Below, one piece after another: positions 5,624-58,842 of a DNA stretch of 64,000 bases (its first letter is position 1; each line of letters opens with the position of its first letter). This stretch comes from Eledone cirrhosa (lineage: Eukaryota). The position numbers and the translations under genes are program-made. The stretch spans positions 340,938,001 through 341,002,000 of the forward strand of contig OZ024740.1 of assembly GCA_964016885.1 (NCBI GenBank), given 5' to 3'. Under the pieces are notes generated by a model. It saw only the letters and a list, made by a program, of their open reading frames with translations, had not been told where the DNA came from and searched no databases.

Positions 5624-8454
5624 AGATCGGGGGAACACACAAGCCAGGTAGATTATATCCTTACCAGAAGATGTGACAGAGTGTCTGTTGTAAACACTAA
5701 ATCCCTCCCCCATGAAGAATGCACCTCCCAACATAGACTGATAATTAGCGACCTAATAGTCAGGACGAGACGTACTAGACAACAGAAGAGGACTATCCTC
5801 AGGAGAAAAATATGGAAGCTAAAGGACCATACAGCCAGAAATAAATTCAAAAGTATACTACTTGATGCTTTCGACAGTAAGGAAGAGCAATTAGAGTCGT
5901 ACAATATAGAGGAGCAGTGGGAATTCCTGAAAGCAAACTTGCTGATGGCGGCAGACGAAGTCTGTGGCTGGAGCAGGCCTGTAGGCAGGAGGAGAGTAAC
6001 ATGGTGGTGGAACAGTAAGGTGGAGGGGTCAATTAAGGCCAAAAAGCAGGCTTGGAAAGTATGGCGGGATGGGGGAAGCAGAGAAGACTATCAAGTGGCC
6101 AGGAGGGAAGCTAGGAGACAAGTGTACTTCGCAAGAAGGGAAGCAGAGGAAAGAAAGTTCAAGCATGTTCTACAACGCGAGGACCAAAAACATGAGGTGT
6201 TCAGGATTGCCAGGCAATGTGTCAAGGAAAACCGTGATATTGTCGGGGAGAAGTGTGTACTTAATGACGATGGCGTACTTGCCATCACTGACGCTGATAA
6301 GAAGGTAGCTTGGAAGTGTCACTACGAAAGTCTACTAAATGAGGAGAATAAATGGGAGAAAGACAGTCTCCCCCACATCGACCCAATAGAGGGACCAGCA
6401 GTGTTAGTCGAAGGTAGTATAATAAGTAAGGCAATCAAAGATATGAAGACGGGTAAGGCGGCTGGGCCTTCGGAAATAGTTGCTGAGATGCTGAAAGCCT
6501 CTGGTACGGTGGGACACACCATGGTCACCCGGATAGTAAACCAAGTCATACAGAATGGGGTTGTTCCGAAGGACTGGTGTAGCAGCATCATCGTTAACTG
6601 TTACAAAGGTAAAGGAGACGCCCTAGATAGGAGTAACTATAGAGGCATTAAATTAATCGACCAGGTCATGAAGGTCACGGAAAAAGTAATAGCGCAACTA
6701 ATCATAGAGAGAATTGATCTAGATGAAATGCAGTTCCGGTTTGTGTCAGGCAAAAGTACCACAGATGCTCTTTTCATTGTATGACAACTACAGGAGAAGT
6801 ACCTAGCTAAAAGTAAACCCCTTTACTTAGCTTTTGTCGACTTGGAGAAAGCCTTCAACAGAGTCCCCCGTTCCATTATCTGGTGGGCTCTTAGAAAACT
6901 AGGTGTTGACGAATGGCTTGTGAGAGCTATACAAGCCATGTATAAAGAAACAGTCAGCAAGGTTAGAATTAACAACGAATATAGTGAAGAGTTTAGCGTA
7001 AAAGTTGGCGTCCATCAGGGCTCTGTTCTCAGCCCCCTACTATTTATTATTGCCCTTCAGGCTGTAACAGAGGAGTTCAAGACCGGTTGCCCATGGGAAC
7101 TCCTATACGCAGATGATCTAACAGTCATAGCTGAATCAATGGCCGAGCTAGAGAAGAAATTCCAAACATGGAAGCACGGCCTAGAATCAAAAGGCCTTAA
7201 AATTAACCTGGCTAAGACTAAAGTTCTAGTTTGTAAGAAAGAAAATAAGGCGGCGGTCCCTTCCGGGAAGTGGCCATGCTCAGTGTGTAGGAAAGGTGTA
7301 GGTAGAAACTCCATTTTGTGTCCCGAATGCAAAGTATGGGTGCATAAAAGATGTAGTGGGATCACAGGTAAGCTAACTAAGAACATAGATTTTACATGTG
7401 GCCGGTGCTATGGTGCAATAAGTAGCAGCAAGTGCCCACAAAATACTAGCTCTTTCAACTGCGCAGAGGGTTCTATAGAAATAGTGGACAGCTTCCGTTA
7501 CCTGGGTGACAAAATCAGCAGTGGGGGAGGGTGCTCTGAAAGTACAGTAGCTAGAGTCAGAACTGGATGGAAAAAGTTCAGAGAGCTTATACCACTATTA
7601 GCCGCTAAAGGGTTCTTCCTAAAAATGAAAGGCAGGTTGTACGATGCCTGCATACGAACAGCAATGTTGCATGGCAGTGAGACCTGGGCATTGTGTGCAG
7701 AGGATATACGCAGACTAGAGAGGAACGAAGCTTGCATGCTCCGCTGGATGTGTAATAGTAATATACGTGAACGGCAAAGCATAAACGAACTAAGGGAAAA
7801 ATTAGAAATAAGAGGGATCAGATGTTGTTTACTCGAGAGAAGGTTACGTTGGTATGGTCACGTGATGCGCATGAAGGACGATAGCTGTATAACAAAGTGC
7901 AAGGCAATAAAGATAGATGGTAGCCACGGAATAGGCAAACCCAGAAAAACCTGGGACGAGCTGATAAATTCCGACCTCACACACTTACACCTCACCAAGA
8001 CAATGTCACTGGACCGAGACCTTTGGCGGTACTCAGTAATAGAGAAGACCCGCCTTACCTAAATACAAAGTAAAACCTACTACAGTCAGTAGGCATCTCT
8101 AACAAAATACACCCCCGTCCCACCACCCCCACCCCATCCACACCGTCCCTTTCAATGTAAAGTTATGTTGGTGCCACAACATCCAGGCCGAAACAAATGA
8201 GATCGTGTAGGTGTCACAACAAAAAAATACACAGTCCACGCTGTAATGTGGCCATGTAGGCAACACAGTAAAAACCTCCCAGTCCCACACTGTAAATGTG
8301 GTTGGTGTTAGGAAGGGCATCCAGCTGTAGAAAACCCACCAGACAGTCCTATGCGAGCAATGACAACCACTCTTGCCTCAAGTGGGAAAACTCCCGTCCA
8401 AACCCATGCAAGCGTGGAACATGGACGTTAAACGATGATGATGATGATGATGAT
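5624..8454 (+). mobile_element. RTE-clade LINE family A, 5'-truncated, one internal stop, (GAT)n tail
   Basis: ORFs 5681-6784 and 6842-8062 are one frame broken by TGA at 6782 (CGA in the 15.2-19 kb copy); RT motifs [32 protein letters not shown]; 3' UTR ends ggacgttaaac(gat)n. Confidence 0.95.
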
Positions 8455-15240: not shown

Positions 15241-18200
15241 TCATCATCATCATCATCATTATCGTTTAACGTCCATGTTCCACGCTTGCATGGGTTTGGA
15301 TGGGGGTTCTCCCACTTGAGGCAAGAGTGGTTGTCTTGCTCGCATAGGACTATCTGGCGGGTTTTCTACAGCTAGATGCCCTTCCTAACACCAACCACAT
15401 TTACAGTGTGGGACTGGGGGGCTTTTTACCATGTTGCCTACACGACCACATTACAGCGTGGACTGTATTTTTTGTTGTGACACCTACACGATCTCATTTG
15501 TTTCGGCCTGGATGTTGTGGCACCAACATAACTTTGCATTGAAAGGGGCAGTGTGGATGGGGTGGGGGTGGTGGGACGGGGGTGTATTTTGTTAGAGATG
15601 CCTACTGACTGTAGTAGGTTTTACTTTGTATTTAGGTAAGGCGGGTCTTCTCTGTTACTGAGTACCGCCAAAGGTCTCGGTCCAGTGACATTGTCTTGGA
15701 GAGGTGTAAGTGTGTGAGGTCGGAATTTATCAGCTCGTCCCAGGTTTTTCTGGGTCTGCCTACTCCGTGGCTACCATCTATCTTTATTGCCCTGCACTTT
15801 GTTATACAGCTGTCGTCTTTCATGCGCATCACGTGACCATACCAACGTAACCTTCTCTCGAGTAAACAACATCTGATCCCTCTTATTTCTAATTTTTTCC
15901 TTAGTTCGTTTATGCTTTGCCGTTCACGTATATTACTATTACACATCCAGCGGAGCATGCAAGCTTCGTTCCTCTCTAGTCTGTGTATATCCTCTGCACA
16001 CAATGCCCAGGTCTCACTGCCATGCAACATTGCTGTTCGTATGCAGGCATCATACAACCTGCCTTTCATTTTTAGGGAGAACCCTTTAGCGGCTAATAGT
16101 GGTATAAGCTCTCTGAACTTTTTACATCCAGTTCTGACTCTAGCTACTGTACTTTCAGAGCACCCTCCCCCACTGCTGATTTTGTCACCCAGGTAACGGA
16201 AGCTGTCCACTATTTCTATAGAACCCTCTGCGCAATTGAAAGAGCTAGTATTTTGTGGCCACTTGCTGCTACTTATTGCACCAGAGCACTGGCCACATGT
16301 AAAATCTGTGTTCTTAGTTAGCTTACCTGTGATCCCACTACATCTTTTATGCACCCATACTTTGCATTTGGGACATAAAATGGAGTTTCTACCTACACCT
16401 TTCCTACACACTGAGCATGGCCATTTCCCGGAAGGGACCGGCGCCTTATTTTCTTTCCTACAAACTAGAACTTTAGTCTTAGCCAGGTTAATTTTAAGGC
16501 CTTTTGATTCTAGGCCGTGCTTCCATGTTTGGAATTTCTTCTCTAGCTCGGCCATTGATTCAGCTATGAGCGTTAGATCATCTGCATATAGGAGTTCCCA
16601 TGGGCAGCCGGTCTTGAACTCCTCTGTTATAGCCTGAAGGGCAATAATAAATAGTAGGGGGCTAAGAACAGAGCCCTGATGGACGCCAACTTTTACGCTA
16701 AACTCTTCACTATATTCGTTGTTAATTCTAACCTTGCTGACTGTTTCTTTATACATGGCTTGTATAGCTCTCACAAGCCATTCGTCAACACCTAGTTTTC
16801 TAAGAGCCCACCAGATAATGGAACGGGGGACTCTGTCGAAGGCTTTCTCCAAGTCGACAAAAGCTAAGTATAGGGGTTTACTTTTAGCTAGGTGCTTCTC
16901 CTGTAGTTGTCGTACAATGAAAAGAGCGTCTGTGGTACTTTTGCCTGACACAAACCCGAACTGCATTTCATCTAGATCAATTCTCTCTCTGATTAGTTGC
17001 GCTATTACTTTTTCCGTGACCTCCATGACCTGGTCGATTAATTTAATGCCTCTATAGTTACTCCTATCTAGGGCGTCTCCTTTACCCTTGTAACAGTTAA
17101 CGATGATGCTGCTACGCCAGTCCTTCGGAACAACCCCATTCTGTATGACTTGGTTTACTATCCGGGTGACCATGGTGTGTCCCACCGTACCAGAGGCTTT
17201 CAGCATCTCAGCAACTATTTCCGAAGGCCCAGCCGCCTTACCCGTCTTCATATCTTTGATTGCCTTACTTATTATACTACCTTCGACTCACACTGCTGGT
17301 CCCTCTATTGGGTCGATGTGGGGGAGACTGTCTTTCTCCCATTTATTCTCCTCATTTAGTAGCCTTTCGTAGTGACACTTCCAAGCTACCTTCTTATCAG
17401 CGTCAGTGATGGCAAGTACGCCATCATCGTTAAGTACACACTTCTCCCCGACAATATCACGGTTTTCCTTGACACATTGCCTAGCAATCCTGAACACCTC
17501 ATGTTTTTGGTCCTCGCGTTGTAGAACATGCTTGAACTTTCTTTCCTCTGCTTCCCTTCTTGCGAAGTACACTTGTCTCCTAGCTTCCCTCCTGGCCACT
17601 TGATAGTCTTCTCTACTTCCCCCATCCCGCCATGCTTTCCAAGCCTGCTTTTTGGCCTTGATTGACCCCTCCACCTTACTGTTCCACCACCATGTTACTC
17701 TCCTCCTGCCTACAGGCCTGCTCCATCCACAGACTTCGTCTGCCGCCATCAGCAGGTTTGCTTTCAGGAATTCCCACTGTTCCTCTACCTTGTACGACTC
17801 TAATTGCTCTTCCTTACTGTCGAAAGCATCAAGTAATATGCTTTGAAATTTATTTCTGGCTGTGGGATCCTTTAGCTTCCATATTTTTCTCCTGAGGATA
17901 GTCCTCTTCTGTTGTCTAGTACGTCTCGTCCTGACTATCATCATTTCATCATCATTTCATTTTACGTCCGCTTTTTCCCTGCTTGCAAGGGTGGGACGGG
18001 AACTGATGCTGGCTTGATTTCTACAGCTGGATGCCCTTCCTAACACCAACCTCATTTACAGCGAGTGCTGGGTGCTTTTTTGCCGTGGCACCTCCACGAC
18101 CATCTTGCAGTGGAATGATATGGACCCCAGTCCCTATCATCTCATTTCTACAGCTGAGTAAACTGGAGCAATGTGAAATAAAGTGTCTTGCTCAAGGAAA

Positions 18201-21277: not shown

Positions 21278-23159
21278 AGGGGAGCAGATTGAGAGAGATG
21301 GGAAGAGTAGAGAAAGAGGGGGCGGGGGCAGATTGAGAGAGAGAGAAAGAAAGAGAGAAGCTGTGAGGAAGCAATGGCACTTCAGACGAAAGAGAAAGAC
21401 AGGAAAAGAAAAGAAGCAATAGACACTGCCACCATTACAGAAACAGAAGAAAAATTAAAGGACATTTATTGCCACTGAGAGATGGATTCACTCAATAAAT
21501 GACACTGTATCATGTGACAAAATGTTAAGTGTAGACATGACTAAGAGAAGAAAACAAAATATTATTCTGTTTGTTTGTCTCTTACTTATGTATTTATGGT
21601 ATGTCATATTTAGAACGTCATTTTTGTTGTTATATAATTACAGCAATTTAAGAAACATTTTTATTCTTTTACTTGTTTCAGTCACTGGGCTGTGGCCATG
21701 CTTAGTATTGATAGTTGCAAGAATTAGTCTTGTTTGACGAACTTGTGAGTACACAGGAGAAACACTTGAGTAACAAAACTCAAGCTTGGCCTTAATAATA
21801 ATGAACCAATTGAGAAATTTTATTTCCCTCATAGTTCCAGATTCAGTCCCACTGCATAGCACTTTGAACAAAAAATGATTAATTATGTGTATATATATAT
21901 ATTTTGAGGATGCTAGCAGGGGACTTCAATGGTCATGTTGGACAACTCCAGCATGGTTACACTGAGGTACATGGTGGGCACGGTTACGGCTCAAGAAATG
22001 AAGAAGGAGTGAGACTTCTTGAATTTTGTGATGCAAGTACACTGACTATTTGCAACACTAACTTCCAGAAACCTGCCAACCACCTCATAACCTACAAATC
22101 TGGCGAGCATATAAGCCAGATTGACTTCTTACTAGTTAGGCAGCGGGACAGGCAGATAGTGTCTAATACCAAGGCATACCCTGGGGAAGAATGTACCCCA
22201 CAGCATAGGTTAGTCGTTAGTGATATCTCGGTAAGCAAGAGATGGAATGAGACATACAGGAAGGTGTGGAGAAGAAAGGTCTTGAAGCTAAAAGACCTTT
22301 CATTAAAATACAAATTTAGGAAAGCCCTTCAAGATGTGTATGACGAAAAAGAAGACGATTTAGAGACGTATGACATAGATAATAACTGGAATTTCTTACG
22401 TGACAACTTACTGCAGGCTACTGATGAAACTTGTGGCTGAGGCAAAGCTCCAACCAGACAGAGAGTGACCTGATGGTGGAACAGCACAGTAGATAAGGCC
22501 ATTAGAGACAAAAGACTAGCATGGAAGGCTTGGAAAAAGGGTGGGAGTAGAGAAGGATATACAGCCGCTAAGAGAGAAGCTAGATGTCAGGTGTACTTAG
22601 CACGCAGGGAGGCTGAGAGTAGGAGGTTTGCCAATGTTCTGTGATGGGAAGATCAGAGGTGTGCGGTGTTCCACATTGCAAGGCAGTGTGTCAATGCAAA
22701 TCAGGATGTTGTTGGAGATAAATGTGTCCGGAATGATGCCGGTGTACTTAGTGTCACGAATGATCAGAAAAAGGAGGCCTGGAAATGTCATTATGCGAGA
22801 CTGATGAATGTGGAGAACGAATGGGAGAGACAGAAATTACCTCAGTAGATCTGACAGAGGGACCAGCTATTGAGATTGACGAATATAGGGTCCAAGAGGC
22901 GATTAAGGAAATGAAAAATGGTAAGGATGCTGGACCATCGGGGATAGTTGTTGAAATGCTGAAGGAATCAGGGGACGTAGGCACTAAACTGGTTGCACGC
23001 ATCATCAATCAGGCTATTTATGGTGGTGTTATACCCAAAGACTGGTGCAGCAGTATTCTCATAAATTGCTACAAATGTAAAGGTGATGCTCTGGAGAGGA
23101 GCAATTATAGGGGTATAAAACTGATGGATCAGGTTATGAAAGTGGCAGAAAGGATATTT

Positions 23160-23492
23160 ATCATTTCATTTTACGTCCGCTTTTTCCCTGCTTGCAATGG
23201 TGGGACGGGAACTGATGCTGGCTTGATTTCTACAGCTGGATGCCCTTCCTAACACCAACCTCATTTACAGTGAGTACTGGGTGCTTTTTTGCTGTGGCAC
23301 CTGCACGACCACTTTACAGTGGAATGATAAGGACTTCAGTCCCTATCATCTCATTTCTACGGCTGAGTAAACTGGAGCAATGTGAAATAAAGTGTCTTGC
23401 TCAAGGAAACAACACATCACCCGGTCTGAGAATTGAACTCACAACCTTTGGATTGCAAGGCCAATGCTCTAACCACTAAGCCATGTGCCTCC
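23160..23492 (-). mobile_element. Full-length tRNA-derived SINE (same family as 17939-18283)
   Basis: Near-identical sequence; identical-type 79-aa artefact ORF at 23240. Confidence 0.9.
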
Positions 23493-23509
23493 AAAAATAT
23501 TGTAATAAA

Positions 23510-23581
23510 GGCTCCAGCGAGTTTCGAACTCGTGACCTTCCGCGTGTGAAGCAGACGTGATAACCACTACACTATGGAACC
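23510..23581 (-). tRNA. trnV: tRNA-Val(CAC), probably a retroposed pre-tRNA copy
   Basis: GGTTCCATAGTGTAGTGGTTATCACGTCTGCTTCACACGCGGAAGGTCACGAGTTCGAAACTCGCTGGAGCC folds as a cloverleaf, anticodon CAC; one A:C mismatch in T stem, T at discriminator; followed by TTTATTACAATATTTTT. Confidence 0.85.
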
Positions 23582-24934
23582 AATTTCGCACAACTAATTA
23601 GAGAAAGGGTCAAACTAGATGAGATGCAGTTTAGTTTTGTGCCTGGGAAGAGTACAACAGATGCCCTCTTCTTGGTGAGACAATTACAAGAGAGGTTCTT
23701 AGAGAAAAATAAGCCACTATACTTAGCCTTTGTTGACCTAGAGAAGGCCTTTGATAGGGTACCCCGATCTGTCATCTGGTGGTCCCTAAGGAAACTAGAT
23801 GTTGAGGAATGGCTTGTGAGGACAGTGCAAGCTTTGTACAGAGGTACTGTCGTAGGAGTACATCAAGGTTCGGTCCTCAGCCCGCTCTTGTTCATTATAG
23901 TCCTCCAAGCCATAACAGAGGAGTTTAAGACTGGCTGTCCATGGGAACTTCTCTATGCTGACGATCTGGTTCTTATAGCAGAATCAGTAGAGGAGCTAGA
24001 GAATAAATTCTGCCTAAGGAAACAGCAGTTGGAAGCAAGAGCACTGAGAGTGAACCTAGCTAAGACAAAAGTGTTGATGAGAAGAAAATAGGACAAAACT
24101 CTGATTCCGTCAGGGAAATGGCCATGTTCGATATGCAGAAAAGGAACTGGCATAAATTCTATAAAATGCACACAATGCAGATCCTGGGTACACAAGAGAT
24201 GTAGTGGGATAGCAGGCAAACTAACAGGTAGGGAGAAATACGTATGCAGTAGATGTACAGGGAAATTAGACAGTAGAAGTCGCATTTTTCAAATGCAGGC
24301 GGGTGCTATAGAAGTGGTGGATAGCTTCCGGTACCTAGGAGATCAGATTAGCATGGGAGGGGGGTGTTCCGAGGCCATAGTATCTAGAATAAGGACGGGT
24401 TGGAAGAAGTTTAGGGAGCTGCTTCCTCTGCTGACGAAGAAGGGTTTCTCCCTGCGTACAAAAGGCCGGTTATATGATGCCTGTGTGAGGAGCGCGATAC
24501 TGCATGGTAGTGAGACATGGGCAGCAACTGCAGAGGATATGCGACGGCTGGAGAGAAATGAGGCAAGCATGCTCCGTTGGATGTACAATGTCAATGTGCG
24601 TGAACGACCCAGCATAAATGTGTTGAGAGAGAAACTGTGTCTGAGAGGGACAGAATGTAGTGTGCGAGAGAGGAGACTTAGGTGGTATGGACATGTGATG
24701 CGCATGGGGGATGACCGATGGGTGAAGAAGTGTCAGGAAATACCAGTTGAAGGTAGACGTGGTAGAGGTAGACCATGAAAAACATGGGCGGAAGTGGTGA
24801 GAACAGACCTCAGATCACTGAAGCTCACGGTGGAGATGACGAAGGACCGTGACAAGTGGAGAGATGCTGTGCTAAATAAGACCTGTCCCACCCTTGCAAG
24901 CAGGGAAAAGCGGACGTAAAATATATATATATGT

Positions 24935-55309: not shown

Positions 55310-58300
55310 CAAGGCTGGCAGTTATAATGTAGGTACTCTGAAAGATAGATTTAGAGAAATTGTGAAAATACATGAGAAAATATAAGTTGATGTTCCCATG
55401 AAGTAAAATGGAGGGAATCCTCAGCCAAACACATCACAGGCAAACAGCATAGCTATACGTTTTTCTGGGTAAGAAATAATGCACTGATCAAGACACAGTC
55501 ACCTGACCCAACTTGCCTCTAATGGGATAAACTGTCTAACCCATGCTAGCATGGAAAATGGACGTTAAATGATGATGATGATGATGATAGATAGCATAGG
55601 CAATTTCTATTTACAATTAAGTAAAGGACAAACATTCTAATTCAATGAGGAACTTTTACAGATAACTCTGACAACAGATGACAGCGACTTCTTAATTCTG
55701 GCTGGTGACTTCAATAGACATGCTGGTCAACACTAGGATAGCTACTTTGGAGTACATGGTGGTTATGGATATGGCTCAATAAATGAAGGGGTCAAGGCTT
55801 CTATTTGCAACACCAACTCCAGGAAACAAGCCAAGCACTTGATCACTTAGCAAACAGGCAAATACGCTAGTCAGATGAACTTCTGGTTCATTAGAAAATG
55901 GGCTAGGCATATGGATATGGTAATGAACACAGGCCTTTCCTAGTGAAGAATGTGCTCCTCCCTCCCAATGTACATTAGTAATCAGCAAGACCTTTGTCAG
56001 CCGCTCTCCAGCTATCTATTTAAAGCTATATATAGCTATGGTGCGGTCACACTTAGAATTTGCATCACCAGTCTGGAACCCCTATCTTGCTCAGAACATT
56101 GACCTCCTGGAAACTGTTCAGGGATGTGCAACCAAGCGAATACCCTCCATCAGGCATCTGAACACCTTGCTTGCCTGGGCATGAATACATTGAAGCTCTG
56201 ATGTCTGGCAACTGATTTGGTAAACACCCAGAAAATTATTAACCATCTTTCCAACAACAACCCTGAACACCTTTTTGAATTCCATGTGTCTAATACACGT
56301 GGGCATGCCTACAAAGTCAGAAAATAGTACAACTCCCATGACTTTTGGAAACATTTTTTCATGCTCAGAATTGCTGAAGCATGGAACAAAAAGCCTGCAT
56401 CAGTTGTTAGCTGCTGAGACACTACATCCTTTAAAACCTCCATGCTTCCTGAAATTCGCCAACACTACACCTGATATCACCCCTCCATACACACGTACAC
56501 ATGTATATCATGACTCATACACTGTTCACTTTCCTGACATTTGTACATTATTCTATGTACTATACATGCACCTTTGATGAGTTGTAGTTCACTTGAGCAC
56601 TGTACACAATAATTTATTTATTATTATTATCATCAGAATAAGAACTAAACAACATCAGAAATGCAGGATACTTTGAAGAAGAAGGTTATGGAAACTGCTA
56701 AATATGGATTCTAAAAAGATCTACATGACATACAATGTTGAGGAGGAGATAGACACATAGACATAGAGGATAATAGGAAGTTTCTATGAGACAACCTATG
56801 ACTGGCTACTAATGAGACCTGTGGCTGTAACAAGGTACCAGCTAGATGAAAAGTGATCTGGTGGTGGAGATGCACTTCTGTTCATAGCCATTAAAGCTAA
56901 AAGATAGGCATGGAAAGACTGCAAAAATGGGGTCAGCAAAGAACAATTAAAATAATAGAAAAGCAGGTGATAGATTTACTTACCATATAAAGAAGTTGAA
57001 AGTAGGGATTTACTTACCATATAAAGAAGTTGAAAGTAGGAGGTCAGCCAACACTATGTGAGGTGAGGACCAGAGATGTGAATTGTTCCACATGGCAAAG
57101 CAGTGTGTAAGTGTGAACCATGATGTTGGGAAAAAGGGTATTCGGAATGACTTTGGTGCATTTAGCCTCACAGATGATCAGAAGAAAGAGGTTTGGTAAT
57201 ATTATTAGGAAAGATTGATGAATCTGGAAAATGAGTGGAAAGAAGAGGAACTATCTCCAGTTGATTTAACAAAACGGCTGGCTATTGAAATAATCAGTTA
57301 CAGGGTCAAAGAAGCAATCAAAGAGATGGCATAGCAACTGGACTGCCAGAGATAGTTGCTGAGATGCTGGAATCATCTGGTGAAGTAGAAGTTCATATAA
57401 TCATCTGCAACACATGATAGTGTTGTACTCAATGACTTATGTAGCAGTATAATAATTAATTTCTATAAGGGAAAAAGTGATGCACTAGAAAGGCGCAACT
57501 ACAGAGACATAAAACTGATTAACTCAGAGATGAAAGTGATGGGAAGAGTGTTAACACAAATAATTAGAGAAAAAGATTTAATTAGATGAGATGCAGTTTG
57601 ATTTTGTGCCAGGACGGAACACCAAAGACGTTCTCTTCTTAGTGAGACAACTAAAAGAAGTTCCTAGCCAATCCCTTATATCTAGCTTTTATTGACCCAT
57701 AGAAGGTCTTTGACAGAGCCCATGATCTGTTATCTGCTGGTCTTTAAGAAAACTTGGGTAGATGAGTGGCTTGTGAGAGTAGTGCAAACCATTTCCAGAA
57801 GTATGGTAAGCAAAGTAAGAGGAGATAATGAATTTAGTGAGGAATTCAATGTGCAGGTAAATGTTCATCAAGACTCACTCGTGAACCCCTCCTGTTTTTT
57901 ATAGCTTTCCAGACCATAACACAAGGGTTTAAAATCGGATGTCCATGGGAATTTCTGTATGCTGACAATCTGGTTTTCATTGCTAAACTATGGAAGAGCT
58001 AGAGAAAAAATTCTGATTGTGGAAACAGAACTTAGAATCCAAAGGACTCAGAATAAGTTTAACAAAGTTCAAAGGTTTAGTAAGTAGGAAAGAGGATAGG
58101 ACTCTAGTTCCAACAGCGAAGTGACCATGCTTTATATATAGACAAAGAATTGGTCGGAACACTATATGATGTACACAAGAGGTGTAGTGTGATTGTAAGC
58201 AGACTAACAGTAAAGGTAGACATTGTATGTTGGAAATGCACAAGTGTAGTTAGTAGCAAGAGCTCTAGTGTAATACATTTTCTCCAATTTTGAGAAAACT

Positions 58301-58842
58301 CCATAGAAGTAACAGATAGCTTTTGTTACCAAGGTGACCAAAGCAGAGGGAGTTGCTCTGAAAATATAGTGGCTACTATAAGGAAAGGCTGGAAAAAATT
58401 AAGAGAACTACTGTTTCTGTTGACAACAAAATGTTTCTCTGTCCACAAATGAAGGGCCAACTGTAAGATACCTATGCCTGTGAATAAAGTGTAATGTTGC
58501 ATATCAATGAAATATGGGCAGTAAATGTAGAGGATATGTGAAATCTGGAGAGAAATGAAGGACGCATGCTTTGGTGAATGTGTGATGTTAATAAACATGA
58601 ACATGGAAGCATGGATGCGCTGAGAAAAAACTATATAAGAAGAATTAATAAGAATTAAATGTAGTGTGCAAGAGAGAAGAGTGCATTGGTATGAACATGT
58701 GATGTGCATGAATGATGATTGTTGGGTGAAGAAGAGCCTGAATTTCCCAAAAGAAGAGCATTTCAGTAGAGGAAGGCCAAGGTAGACATGGGTAGATTTG
58801 GTGAGAGCAGATCTCAAAATGCTGAACCTGACAGAAATGACA
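55310..58842 (+). mobile_element. Old, heavily decayed near-full-length RTE (APE to RT C-terminus)
   Basis: YNVGTLK start, AGDFN.H, NYRDIKLI, LDEMQFDFVPG, CPWEFLYAD, R.HWYEHV, RGRPR*TW in shifting frames; nested insertions at ~55485-55590 and 55988-56631. Confidence 0.85.
55988..56631 (+). mobile_element. 5'-truncated CR1/L2-type LINE nested in the old RTE
   Basis: LKLYIAMVRSHLEFASPVWNPYLAQNIDLLETVQGCATKRIP; NTRGHAYK; (ATT)n tail. Confidence 0.85.

What the first reader, a model, noticed from the sequence alone, without database searches (positions are those of the whole stretch)
23158..23585. Pre-tRNA-Val(CAC)-SINE chimera inserted as one unit into an RTE
Seen: the RTE-B reading VMKVAERI|FAQLIRE is split by about 425 bp. 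On the minus strand this reads: a few leader nt, a complete tRNA-Val(CAC) without CCA, trailer TTTATTACAATATTTTT, then immediately base 1 of a full SINE with RTE tail. Other full SINE copies (17939, 51965) lack the tRNA. Inference: either a Pol III pre-tRNA was joined to SINE RNA by template switch or ligation (analogous to U6/L1 chimeras), or a SINE source locus just behind a tRNA gene is read through, giving a nascent dimeric SINE.
Basis: partly seen in the sequence, partly recalled or inferred. Interest (0 to 1): 0.72.

Follow-up and report, generated by a model that had tools for sequence, protein, structure and literature searches.

The report
Precursor tRNA fused onto a SINE
An unprocessed valine tRNA copy sits joined head-to-tail to a short mobile element (SINE) inside a dead LINE, one of many such single-copy fusions with different tRNAs in this genome, likely made when the LINE's reverse transcriptase finished copying the SINE RNA and jumped onto a tRNA precursor, which would show how two-part SINEs get started.

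Summary
Confirmed and generalised. The roughly 428-bp insert is a 6-nt leader, tRNA-Val(CAC), a 16-nt trailer ending in T5 and a full SINE, placed almost bluntly (no target duplication) in the reverse-transcriptase frame of the LINE whose 3' end the SINE shares. Leader and trailer match a tandem tRNA-Val array on the same contig; none of the 28 array loci read has the SINE behind the trailer, and the junction was found once. It is not alone: 14 of 24,641 SINE heads carry an upstream T-loop plus T-run (control 0; antisense 0 of 16 loci). In all I found 25 full-head fusions: 17 tRNAs of 10 amino acids (three with introns) and 8 copies of an unannotated tRNA-like Pol III RNA. U6 chimeras are common here too. 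Best reading: recurrent end-to-end template jumps onto U-tailed Pol III precursors (0.72), not a dimeric subfamily or read-through. Closest known: U6-SINE/LINE chimeras. Published human tRNA/L1 chimeras are mostly antisense halves. The scan noted the same kind of fusion in other genomes (unreviewed notes). New variant of a known kind.

The parts
23582..23587 (-). 6-nt 5' leader of the pre-tRNA, identical to the bases upstream of the parent genes; identity stops sharply at -7
   Evidence: (query 4-98 matched)
23509..23581 (-). tRNA-Val(CAC) body, no CCA; one difference from the closest parent genes, in the T stem
   Evidence: (99% over 95 nt)
23493..23508 (-). 16-nt 3' trailer ending in T5 (Pol III terminator), identical to T5-type parent genes; the parent's downstream flank is absent
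23159..23492 (-). Full-length tRNA-headed SINE (about 335 bp), lacking only the first 1-2 bases, ending in the LINE-derived tail and a short ATG-type repeat
21901..23158 (+). Host LINE, 5' part (5'-truncated after an (AT)n run; endonuclease-like C-terminal stretch and start of RT read by eye; stops and frameshifts); 90-96% identical to close copies
   Evidence: no Pfam hit for the two pieces scanned
23588..24922 (+). Host LINE, 3' part with reverse-transcriptase domain; its last 41 bases match the SINE tail (93-100%), so this family is the likely mobiliser of the SINE
   Evidence: Pfam RVT_1 E 9.1e-23

Best explanation
The insert is a single retroposition product of an unprocessed pre-tRNA-Val fused to a full SINE, likely formed when the partner LINE's reverse transcriptase, after priming at the target and copying the SINE RNA to its 5' end, jumped to the oligo-U 3' end of a nuclear pre-tRNA and copied it through to its leader. 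Shown: anatomy, parent genes, blunt empty site, SINE tail shared with the host LINE, recurrence with many Pol III RNAs, sense-only orientation. Inferred: that the LINE enzyme did the joining, that it happened during integration and in the nucleus, and that non-templated bases helped the jump. The copy keeps its internal promoter boxes and a T5 terminator, so if transcribed it would more likely yield a pre-tRNA than a dimer RNA (untested).
For: Boundaries are those of a primary transcript: 6-nt leader to the T-run, parent flanks absent. Recurrence: 14 matches of T-loop..TTTT..SINE head against 0 for the reversed pattern, of 24,641 heads; 12 are tRNAs and 2 the tRNA-like RNA. Looser searches raised this to 25 full-head fusions. 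Mirror search for antisense tRNA: 18 rows, 16 loci, 0 tRNAs. Three heads keep introns (L032, L040, L175). For the tRNA-like family, most parent genes shown end in 7 or more T, while five fusions carry 4-6, as an RNA 3' end would. 0 of 25 junctions have an (AT)2 or longer spacer; 14 go straight to the SINE's AT, 4 lack it, 7 have 1-4 other bases. SINE bodies of 25 chimeras (24 full-head plus L150) are as diverged as 28 ordinary copies (2.5% vs 2.4%) and form no supported clade. R2-type enzymes jump end to end and add mainly purines that can pair with an acceptor's 3' end (bioRxiv 10.1101/2021.04.30.442027, passages).
Against: No biochemical test of this LINE's enzyme; its jump activity is borrowed from R2. 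The 25 were selected for a full head; without that bias 4 of 7 dispersed tRNA-like copies and 2 of 5 dispersed Asp rows join a full head, 2 of 7 join a truncated SINE, 1 of 7 another element, and 3 of 5 Asp rows have no partner. The best-studied case, human U6/L1, is made by RNA ligation, not jumping (PMC6789731, passages). Ordinary copies of this SINE showed no obvious target duplications either (by eye), so their absence here does not prove one event. Parent leader and trailer were matched only for Val(CAC), one Asp trailer (L037) and part of the tRNA-like family; the Val(AAC) fusion's trailer does not match the five array genes shown.
Confidence: 0.72

Rival explanations
1. Pre-tRNA and SINE RNA were ligated first (RtcB or another RNA ligase) and the fused RNA was then retroposed through the SINE tail.
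For: This is the demonstrated route for human U6/L1 (PMC6789731, passages). It predicts sense orientation, junctions at the U tail and single copies, all seen. Truncated partners, which could carry 5'-OH ends, occur (L150, L193, L153).
Against: RtcB needed a 2',3'-cyclic phosphate and a 5'-OH; 3'-OH or 5'-triphosphate ends strongly reduced ligation. Pre-tRNAs end in U-OH and a full SINE transcript starts with a triphosphate (established knowledge, not tested here), yet 25 junctions are at or within 3 bases of the SINE start. Extra bases at 7 of 25 junctions suit polymerase tailing.
Confidence: 0.14
2. A SINE landed at a tRNA gene's terminator, Pol III read through, and the dimer RNA is amplifying as a subfamily.
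For: Two Asp fusions (L035, L246) share the same trailer and junction, a trailer not among 47 array units listed. Many junctions have only T4, which can be a leaky terminator (recalled).
Against: For Val(CAC): one junction copy; 28 of 28 array loci read have no SINE behind the trailer; T5 lies between tRNA and SINE. Seventeen tRNA heads of 10 amino acids would each need their own source. No shared derived SINE variants among chimeras; L246 was compared with L035 only by eye and BLAST (92.5%).
Confidence: 0.06
3. Two independent insertions: a stand-alone pre-tRNA retrocopy, later hit by a SINE at its 3' end (or the reverse order).
For: Stand-alone pre-tRNA-Asp copies ending in (AT)n exist (3 of 6 rows), and this SINE favours (AT)n.
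Against: This locus has no (AT)n and an exact empty site. No junction of 25 has a longer (AT)n spacer although allowed up to about three repeats; 0 antisense cases.
Confidence: 0.05
4. Assembly artefact or chance neighbourhood.
For: Junctions were not checked on raw reads.
Against: Controls gave 0; junctions fall exactly at transcript ends at 25 loci on many contigs; host flanks rejoin to the base.
Confidence: 0.02

Closest known systems
U6-SINE and U6-LINE chimeric retrocopies of platypus (L2, Mon-1), anole (L1, L2, RTEX, AnolisSINE2) and opossum (RTE_Mdo, RTESINE1); PMC4476161, passages read
   Same: U-tailed Pol III RNA fused in sense to the 5' end of a SINE or LINE moved by a stringent LINE; single copies; short or no target duplication; template switch proposed. 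U6 chimeras also abound in this genome.
   Different: Here the 5' partner is an unprocessed pre-tRNA (leader, trailer, sometimes intron) of many isotypes or a tRNA-like RNA, and the SINE is usually complete to its start.
Human U6/L1 chimeras made by RtcB ligation; PMC6789731, passages read
   Same: Pol III RNA ending in about four U joined to a retroposon RNA.
   Different: Needs a cyclic phosphate and a 5'-OH; partners here are expected to have neither.
Human tRNA/LINE-1 chimeras (n = 21); PMC13174262, abstract and passages read
   Same: tRNA sequence co-inserted at the 5' end of a retroposon.
   Different: Those are mostly half tRNAs in antisense with 9-19-bp duplications (twin priming proposed); these are whole precursors, sense only, with no duplication at this locus.
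Tailless and pre-tRNA retropseudogenes (Schmitz 2004; not held; seen only as cited in PMC4476161 and PMC2912911)
   Same: Nuclear pre-tRNA used as template by a LINE enzyme; the three stand-alone Asp copies look like this class.
   Different: No SINE partner; 3'-truncated and primed directly.
SINEs that gained a new small-RNA head (SINEU, tree-shrew tRNA+7SL, Bov-tA); PMC4494074 and PMC5786205, passages read
   Same: 5' addition of a small RNA by template switch is the proposed origin of such families.
   Different: Those amplified from a master; these are the unamplified one-off products.

Membership tests
Small-RNA/retroposon chimeric retrocopies (U6/L1 type) | 5' part is a cellular small RNA with a separate parent gene | tested here: met
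   Parent tRNA-Val array G000:C1:176.75-176.87 Mb, 99% over 95 nt
Small-RNA/retroposon chimeric retrocopies (U6/L1 type) | Junction at the RNA's 3' oligo-U end, same orientation as the 3' partner | tested here: met
   antisense 0 of 16 loci
Small-RNA/retroposon chimeric retrocopies (U6/L1 type) | 3' partner carries a LINE-recognised tail | tested here: met
   SINE tail matches host LINE 3' end, 41-42 bases, 93% for this copy
Small-RNA/retroposon chimeric retrocopies (U6/L1 type) | One target-site duplication enclosing both parts | tested here: inconclusive
   No duplication at all; blunt to within one base. PMC4494074 notes that non-LTR insertions may leave the target unaltered or truncated
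Small-RNA/retroposon chimeric retrocopies (U6/L1 type) | Independent single-copy events | tested here: met
   One Val(CAC) junction; star-like SINE bodies; one identical-trailer pair remains open
Dimeric SINE subfamily | Many copies sharing the same junction and diagnostic variants | tested here: not met
   (exact patterns and 40 of 1,425 scored candidates; diverged copies could be missed)
RtcB-ligated chimeras | Cyclic-phosphate donor and 5'-OH acceptor; chimeric RNA exists before retroposition | not testable with these tools
   End chemistry inferred only
RTE clade (host and mobilising LINE) | RT phylogeny with RTE; single ORF with AP endonuclease and RT; short 3' UTR with simple-repeat tail | tested here: inconclusive

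The most novel reading that the evidence does not exclude
This LINE's reverse transcriptase routinely caps finished SINE copies with whichever U-tailed Pol III precursor is at hand, leaving a fossil catalogue of the germ-line nuclear Pol III transcriptome; that catalogue exposes an unannotated, roughly 100-nt tRNA-like RNA from hundreds of arrayed genes as the commonest captive, and one Asp-SINE dimer with a leaky T4 (L035/L246) has already retroposed again, a dimeric SINE caught at birth.
Probability: 0.2. Interest if true: 0.72.

Novelty: new variant of a known kind. Interest (0 to 1): 0.5.

Why it matters
Two-part and re-headed SINEs are thought to arise by template switching onto small RNAs, but the one-off intermediates with tRNA precursors are rarely shown. 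Here at least 25 are readable to the base, with parents, introns and junction bases, and their full-length SINE starts argue for a polymerase jump rather than the ligation proven for human U6/L1, which makes the jump-versus-ligation question testable with one enzyme. The same process could scatter intact tRNA genes, and it flags which Pol III genes were transcribed in the germ line. It is a variant of a known mechanism, with no sign of a function at this locus.

Tried and rejected
(pre-tRNA copies beside (AT)n, any partner) was swamped by another SINE family: 1,214 overlapping matches, 100 listed, no use. One search was dominated by (AT)n false hits. Rfam gave no family for the tRNA-like RNA (5 hits, best E 0.19, all far below cut-off; no vault RNA hit); its similarity to the genome's own tRNA-Glu and tRNA-Pro is weak (z 3.4 and 3.5), so its origin is not settled. 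Rows dropped (36 rows): 12 already; 12 SINE-head tandem repeats (C1 x6, C14 x2, C18 x2, C28, and L172 read as a related head after a chance motif); 3 other repeats next to a SINE (L168, L173, L198); L176 (tRNA-Gly beside another SINE family) left uncounted; 8 kept as new; no RNA holder listed; small-share runs not used. No read-level check of the junction was obtained, so polymorphism, tRNA-only alleles and presence in other individuals remain open. Patterns needed an intact T-loop, so heads cut near position 58 (raised by note e1-8661759) would be missed. 5S, 7SL and 7SK partners and tRNA-LINE fusions were not searched. Not-in-print claim rests in an open-access library; no supplements were read, and those of PMC4476161 and PMC13174262 may list pre-tRNA cases.

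Full report
Observation. On the minus strand the insert reads: 6-nt leader (23587-23582), tRNA-Val(CAC) (23581-23509), 16-nt trailer ending in five T (23508-23493), then a SINE (23492 to about 23159) that is 96% and 94% identical to two tRNA-less copies in the window. Ordinary copies have AT before the GGAGG start in 21 of 30 cases and T in 28 of 30, so this junction lacks the first one or two SINE bases. The host is a dead, 5'-truncated LINE (about 21901-24922, plus strand) with an RVT_1 domain (E 9.1e-23; the other two pieces scanned gave no Pfam hit). Nineteen close copies give the empty site: the insert replaces one base, or adds one, with no duplication. The host's last 41 bases match the SINE tail, so the SINE landed in a copy of its own likely mobiliser. 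The repeats recall octopus genomes (recalled, untested).

Parent gene. A DNA search of the own genome (40 of 1,425 candidates scored) gave the locus itself, one other fusion (L002) and 38 hits in a tandem array at G000:C1:176.75-176.87 Mb with a 1.9-kb unit holding Val TAC, AAC and CAC genes. The best units match leader, body and trailer at 99% over 95 nt; identity ends at -7 and at the T-run, and none of the 28 array loci read has a SINE behind the trailer. These are the ends of a primary Pol III transcript.

Recurrence. The pattern T-loop, 12-40 nt, TTTT, 0-3 nt, SINE head gave 14 matches and 0 for the reversed control, among 24,641 heads: 0.057%, a lower bound. Twelve are tRNAs (Val CAC, Val AAC, Asn, Asp three times counting one internally deleted and one 5'-truncated copy, Gln, Gly twice, Pro, Leu and Lys; ARAGORN named 9; the rest by Rfam length and by eye) and two are a tRNA-like RNA. 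Leu and Lys keep introns. A looser pattern (36 rows, control 0) added Lys with intron, Arg, Asp, Ile and four tRNA-like heads; searches added two more tRNA-like heads and one Asp. Total 25 full-head fusions: 17 tRNA heads of 10 amino acids and 8 tRNA-like heads. The mirror pattern for an antisense tRNA gave 18 rows at 16 loci, none a tRNA.

Junctions. Of 25, 14 run from the T-run into the SINE's AT, 4 lack it (this locus among them), 7 carry 1-4 other bases, and none has a longer (AT)n spacer. SINE bodies of 25 chimeras (24 of the above plus the truncated L150) differ 2.5% from the majority, 28 ordinary copies 2.4% (2 of 30 dropped for short alignment); the tree is a star whose only starred clade holds four ordinary copies. 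This copy differs 3.3%.

Unbiased samples. Of 7 dispersed copies of the tRNA-like RNA found without asking for a partner, 4 join a full head, 2 a truncated SINE, 1 a short different element, 0 stand alone. For one Asp trailer, 6 rows were 1 array gene, 2 full-head fusions and 3 partnerless copies running into (AT)n. For U6, 32 of 48 hits lie in one array; of 16 dispersed hits 2 look like genes and 14 like fusions to assorted repeat ends (partners partly judged by eye). A 14-nt U6 3' motif gave 95 rows (control 3): 30 array, 65 dispersed, 2 joined to a full head of this SINE and 17 to one roughly 60-nt element (counted by eye, U6 body not verified for most). So capture of U-tailed Pol III RNAs is general in this genome and not limited to one partner.

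Mechanism. Shown: one blunt insertion, transcript-shaped ends, sense-only recurrence, retained introns. Inferred: target-primed copying of the SINE RNA from its LINE-like tail, then an end-to-end jump to the pre-tRNA's U tail, then 5' joining. R2-type enzymes jump end to end and add non-templated bases, poorly pyrimidines (bioRxiv 10.1101/2021.04.30.442027, passages), which would suit U-ended acceptors. Ligation by RtcB, proven for human U6/L1, needed a cyclic phosphate and a 5'-OH (PMC6789731, passages), ends that a pre-tRNA and a full SINE transcript are not expected to have. Against me: the enzyme is untested, truncated partners and partnerless copies exist, missing duplications are uninformative, and L035 and L246 share a trailer and junction not seen in 47 listed array units, which leaves one re-amplified dimer possible; L037's trailer is the common array type.

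Comparison. It works like, and meets the tested features of, small-RNA/retroposon chimeric retrocopies. U6 fused to SINEs of stringent LINEs is published for platypus, anole and opossum (PMC4476161, passages). Human tRNA/L1 chimeras are mostly antisense halves (PMC13174262, abstract and passages). Pre-tRNA and tailless retropseudogenes are known to me only through citations (original not held). Head addition by template switch is the proposed origin of new SINEs (PMC4494074 and PMC5786205, passages). A repeat annotation of Octopus vulgaris does not use the word chimer- in its main text (PMC13282606, passages). Searches listed no paper on sense pre-tRNA/SINE fusions; the library lacks most subscription papers and I read no supplements. 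Three unreviewed notes of this scan describe similar fusions in other genomes; they are not evidence and I did not check them.

Verdict. Real; a new variant of a known kind; no sign of function at this locus; interest 0.5.

Noticed in passing
L098:1495-1600 (G000:C23:15.18-15.29 Mb, also C18, C24, C25): Unannotated multicopy Pol III-type gene of about 100 nt: TATA-like box upstream, A and B boxes, long T terminator, tandem units about 8.6 kb apart; 327 first-look candidates; no Rfam family; weakly like tRNA-Glu or tRNA-Pro. The commonest 5' partner in the fusions.
   Followed up: partly
G000, rows; L232, L233, L239, L153: 17 of 65 dispersed U6 3' motifs, and one tRNA-like RNA, join the same roughly 60-nt element, 16 at nearly the same start, suggesting a fixed 5' end (a processed or self-cleaved RNA?).
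   Followed up: no
L003-L030 (C1:176.75-176.87 Mb); L266-L279 (C3:277.24-277.31 Mb); L202-L229 (C19:31.78-31.84 Mb): tRNA-Val (TAC/AAC/CAC, 1.9-kb unit), tRNA-Asp/Glu (1.34-kb unit, 109 genes called in 140 kb) and U6 (1.8-kb unit) genes lie in long tandem arrays.
   Followed up: partly
L003:1507-1579 and 672-744: Array tRNA-Val genes have T at the discriminator position; A is what I recall as usual for valine tRNAs.
   Followed up: no
L040:1525-1618; L175: tRNA-Lys(TTT) precursors with a 17-19-nt intron, captured unspliced; both sit on a SINE variant with a longer, different tail.
   Followed up: partly
L031, just upstream of the SINE head: Captured tRNA-Asp lacks its anticodon arm: D loop joined to T arm at a short GG repeat, as if the enzyme skipped internally.
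   Followed up: no
L242, L244, L245: Partnerless pre-tRNA-Asp copies whose trailers run into (AT)n, likely primed directly by ATAT microhomology.
   Followed up: partly
L161-L166, L180-L181, L187-L188: Tandem satellites of 84-89-bp SINE-head units (A box and B box repeated).
   Followed up: no
window 5879-7955, 15739-17702, 56750-58832: Older LINE copies about 66% identical to the host LINE.
   Followed up: no
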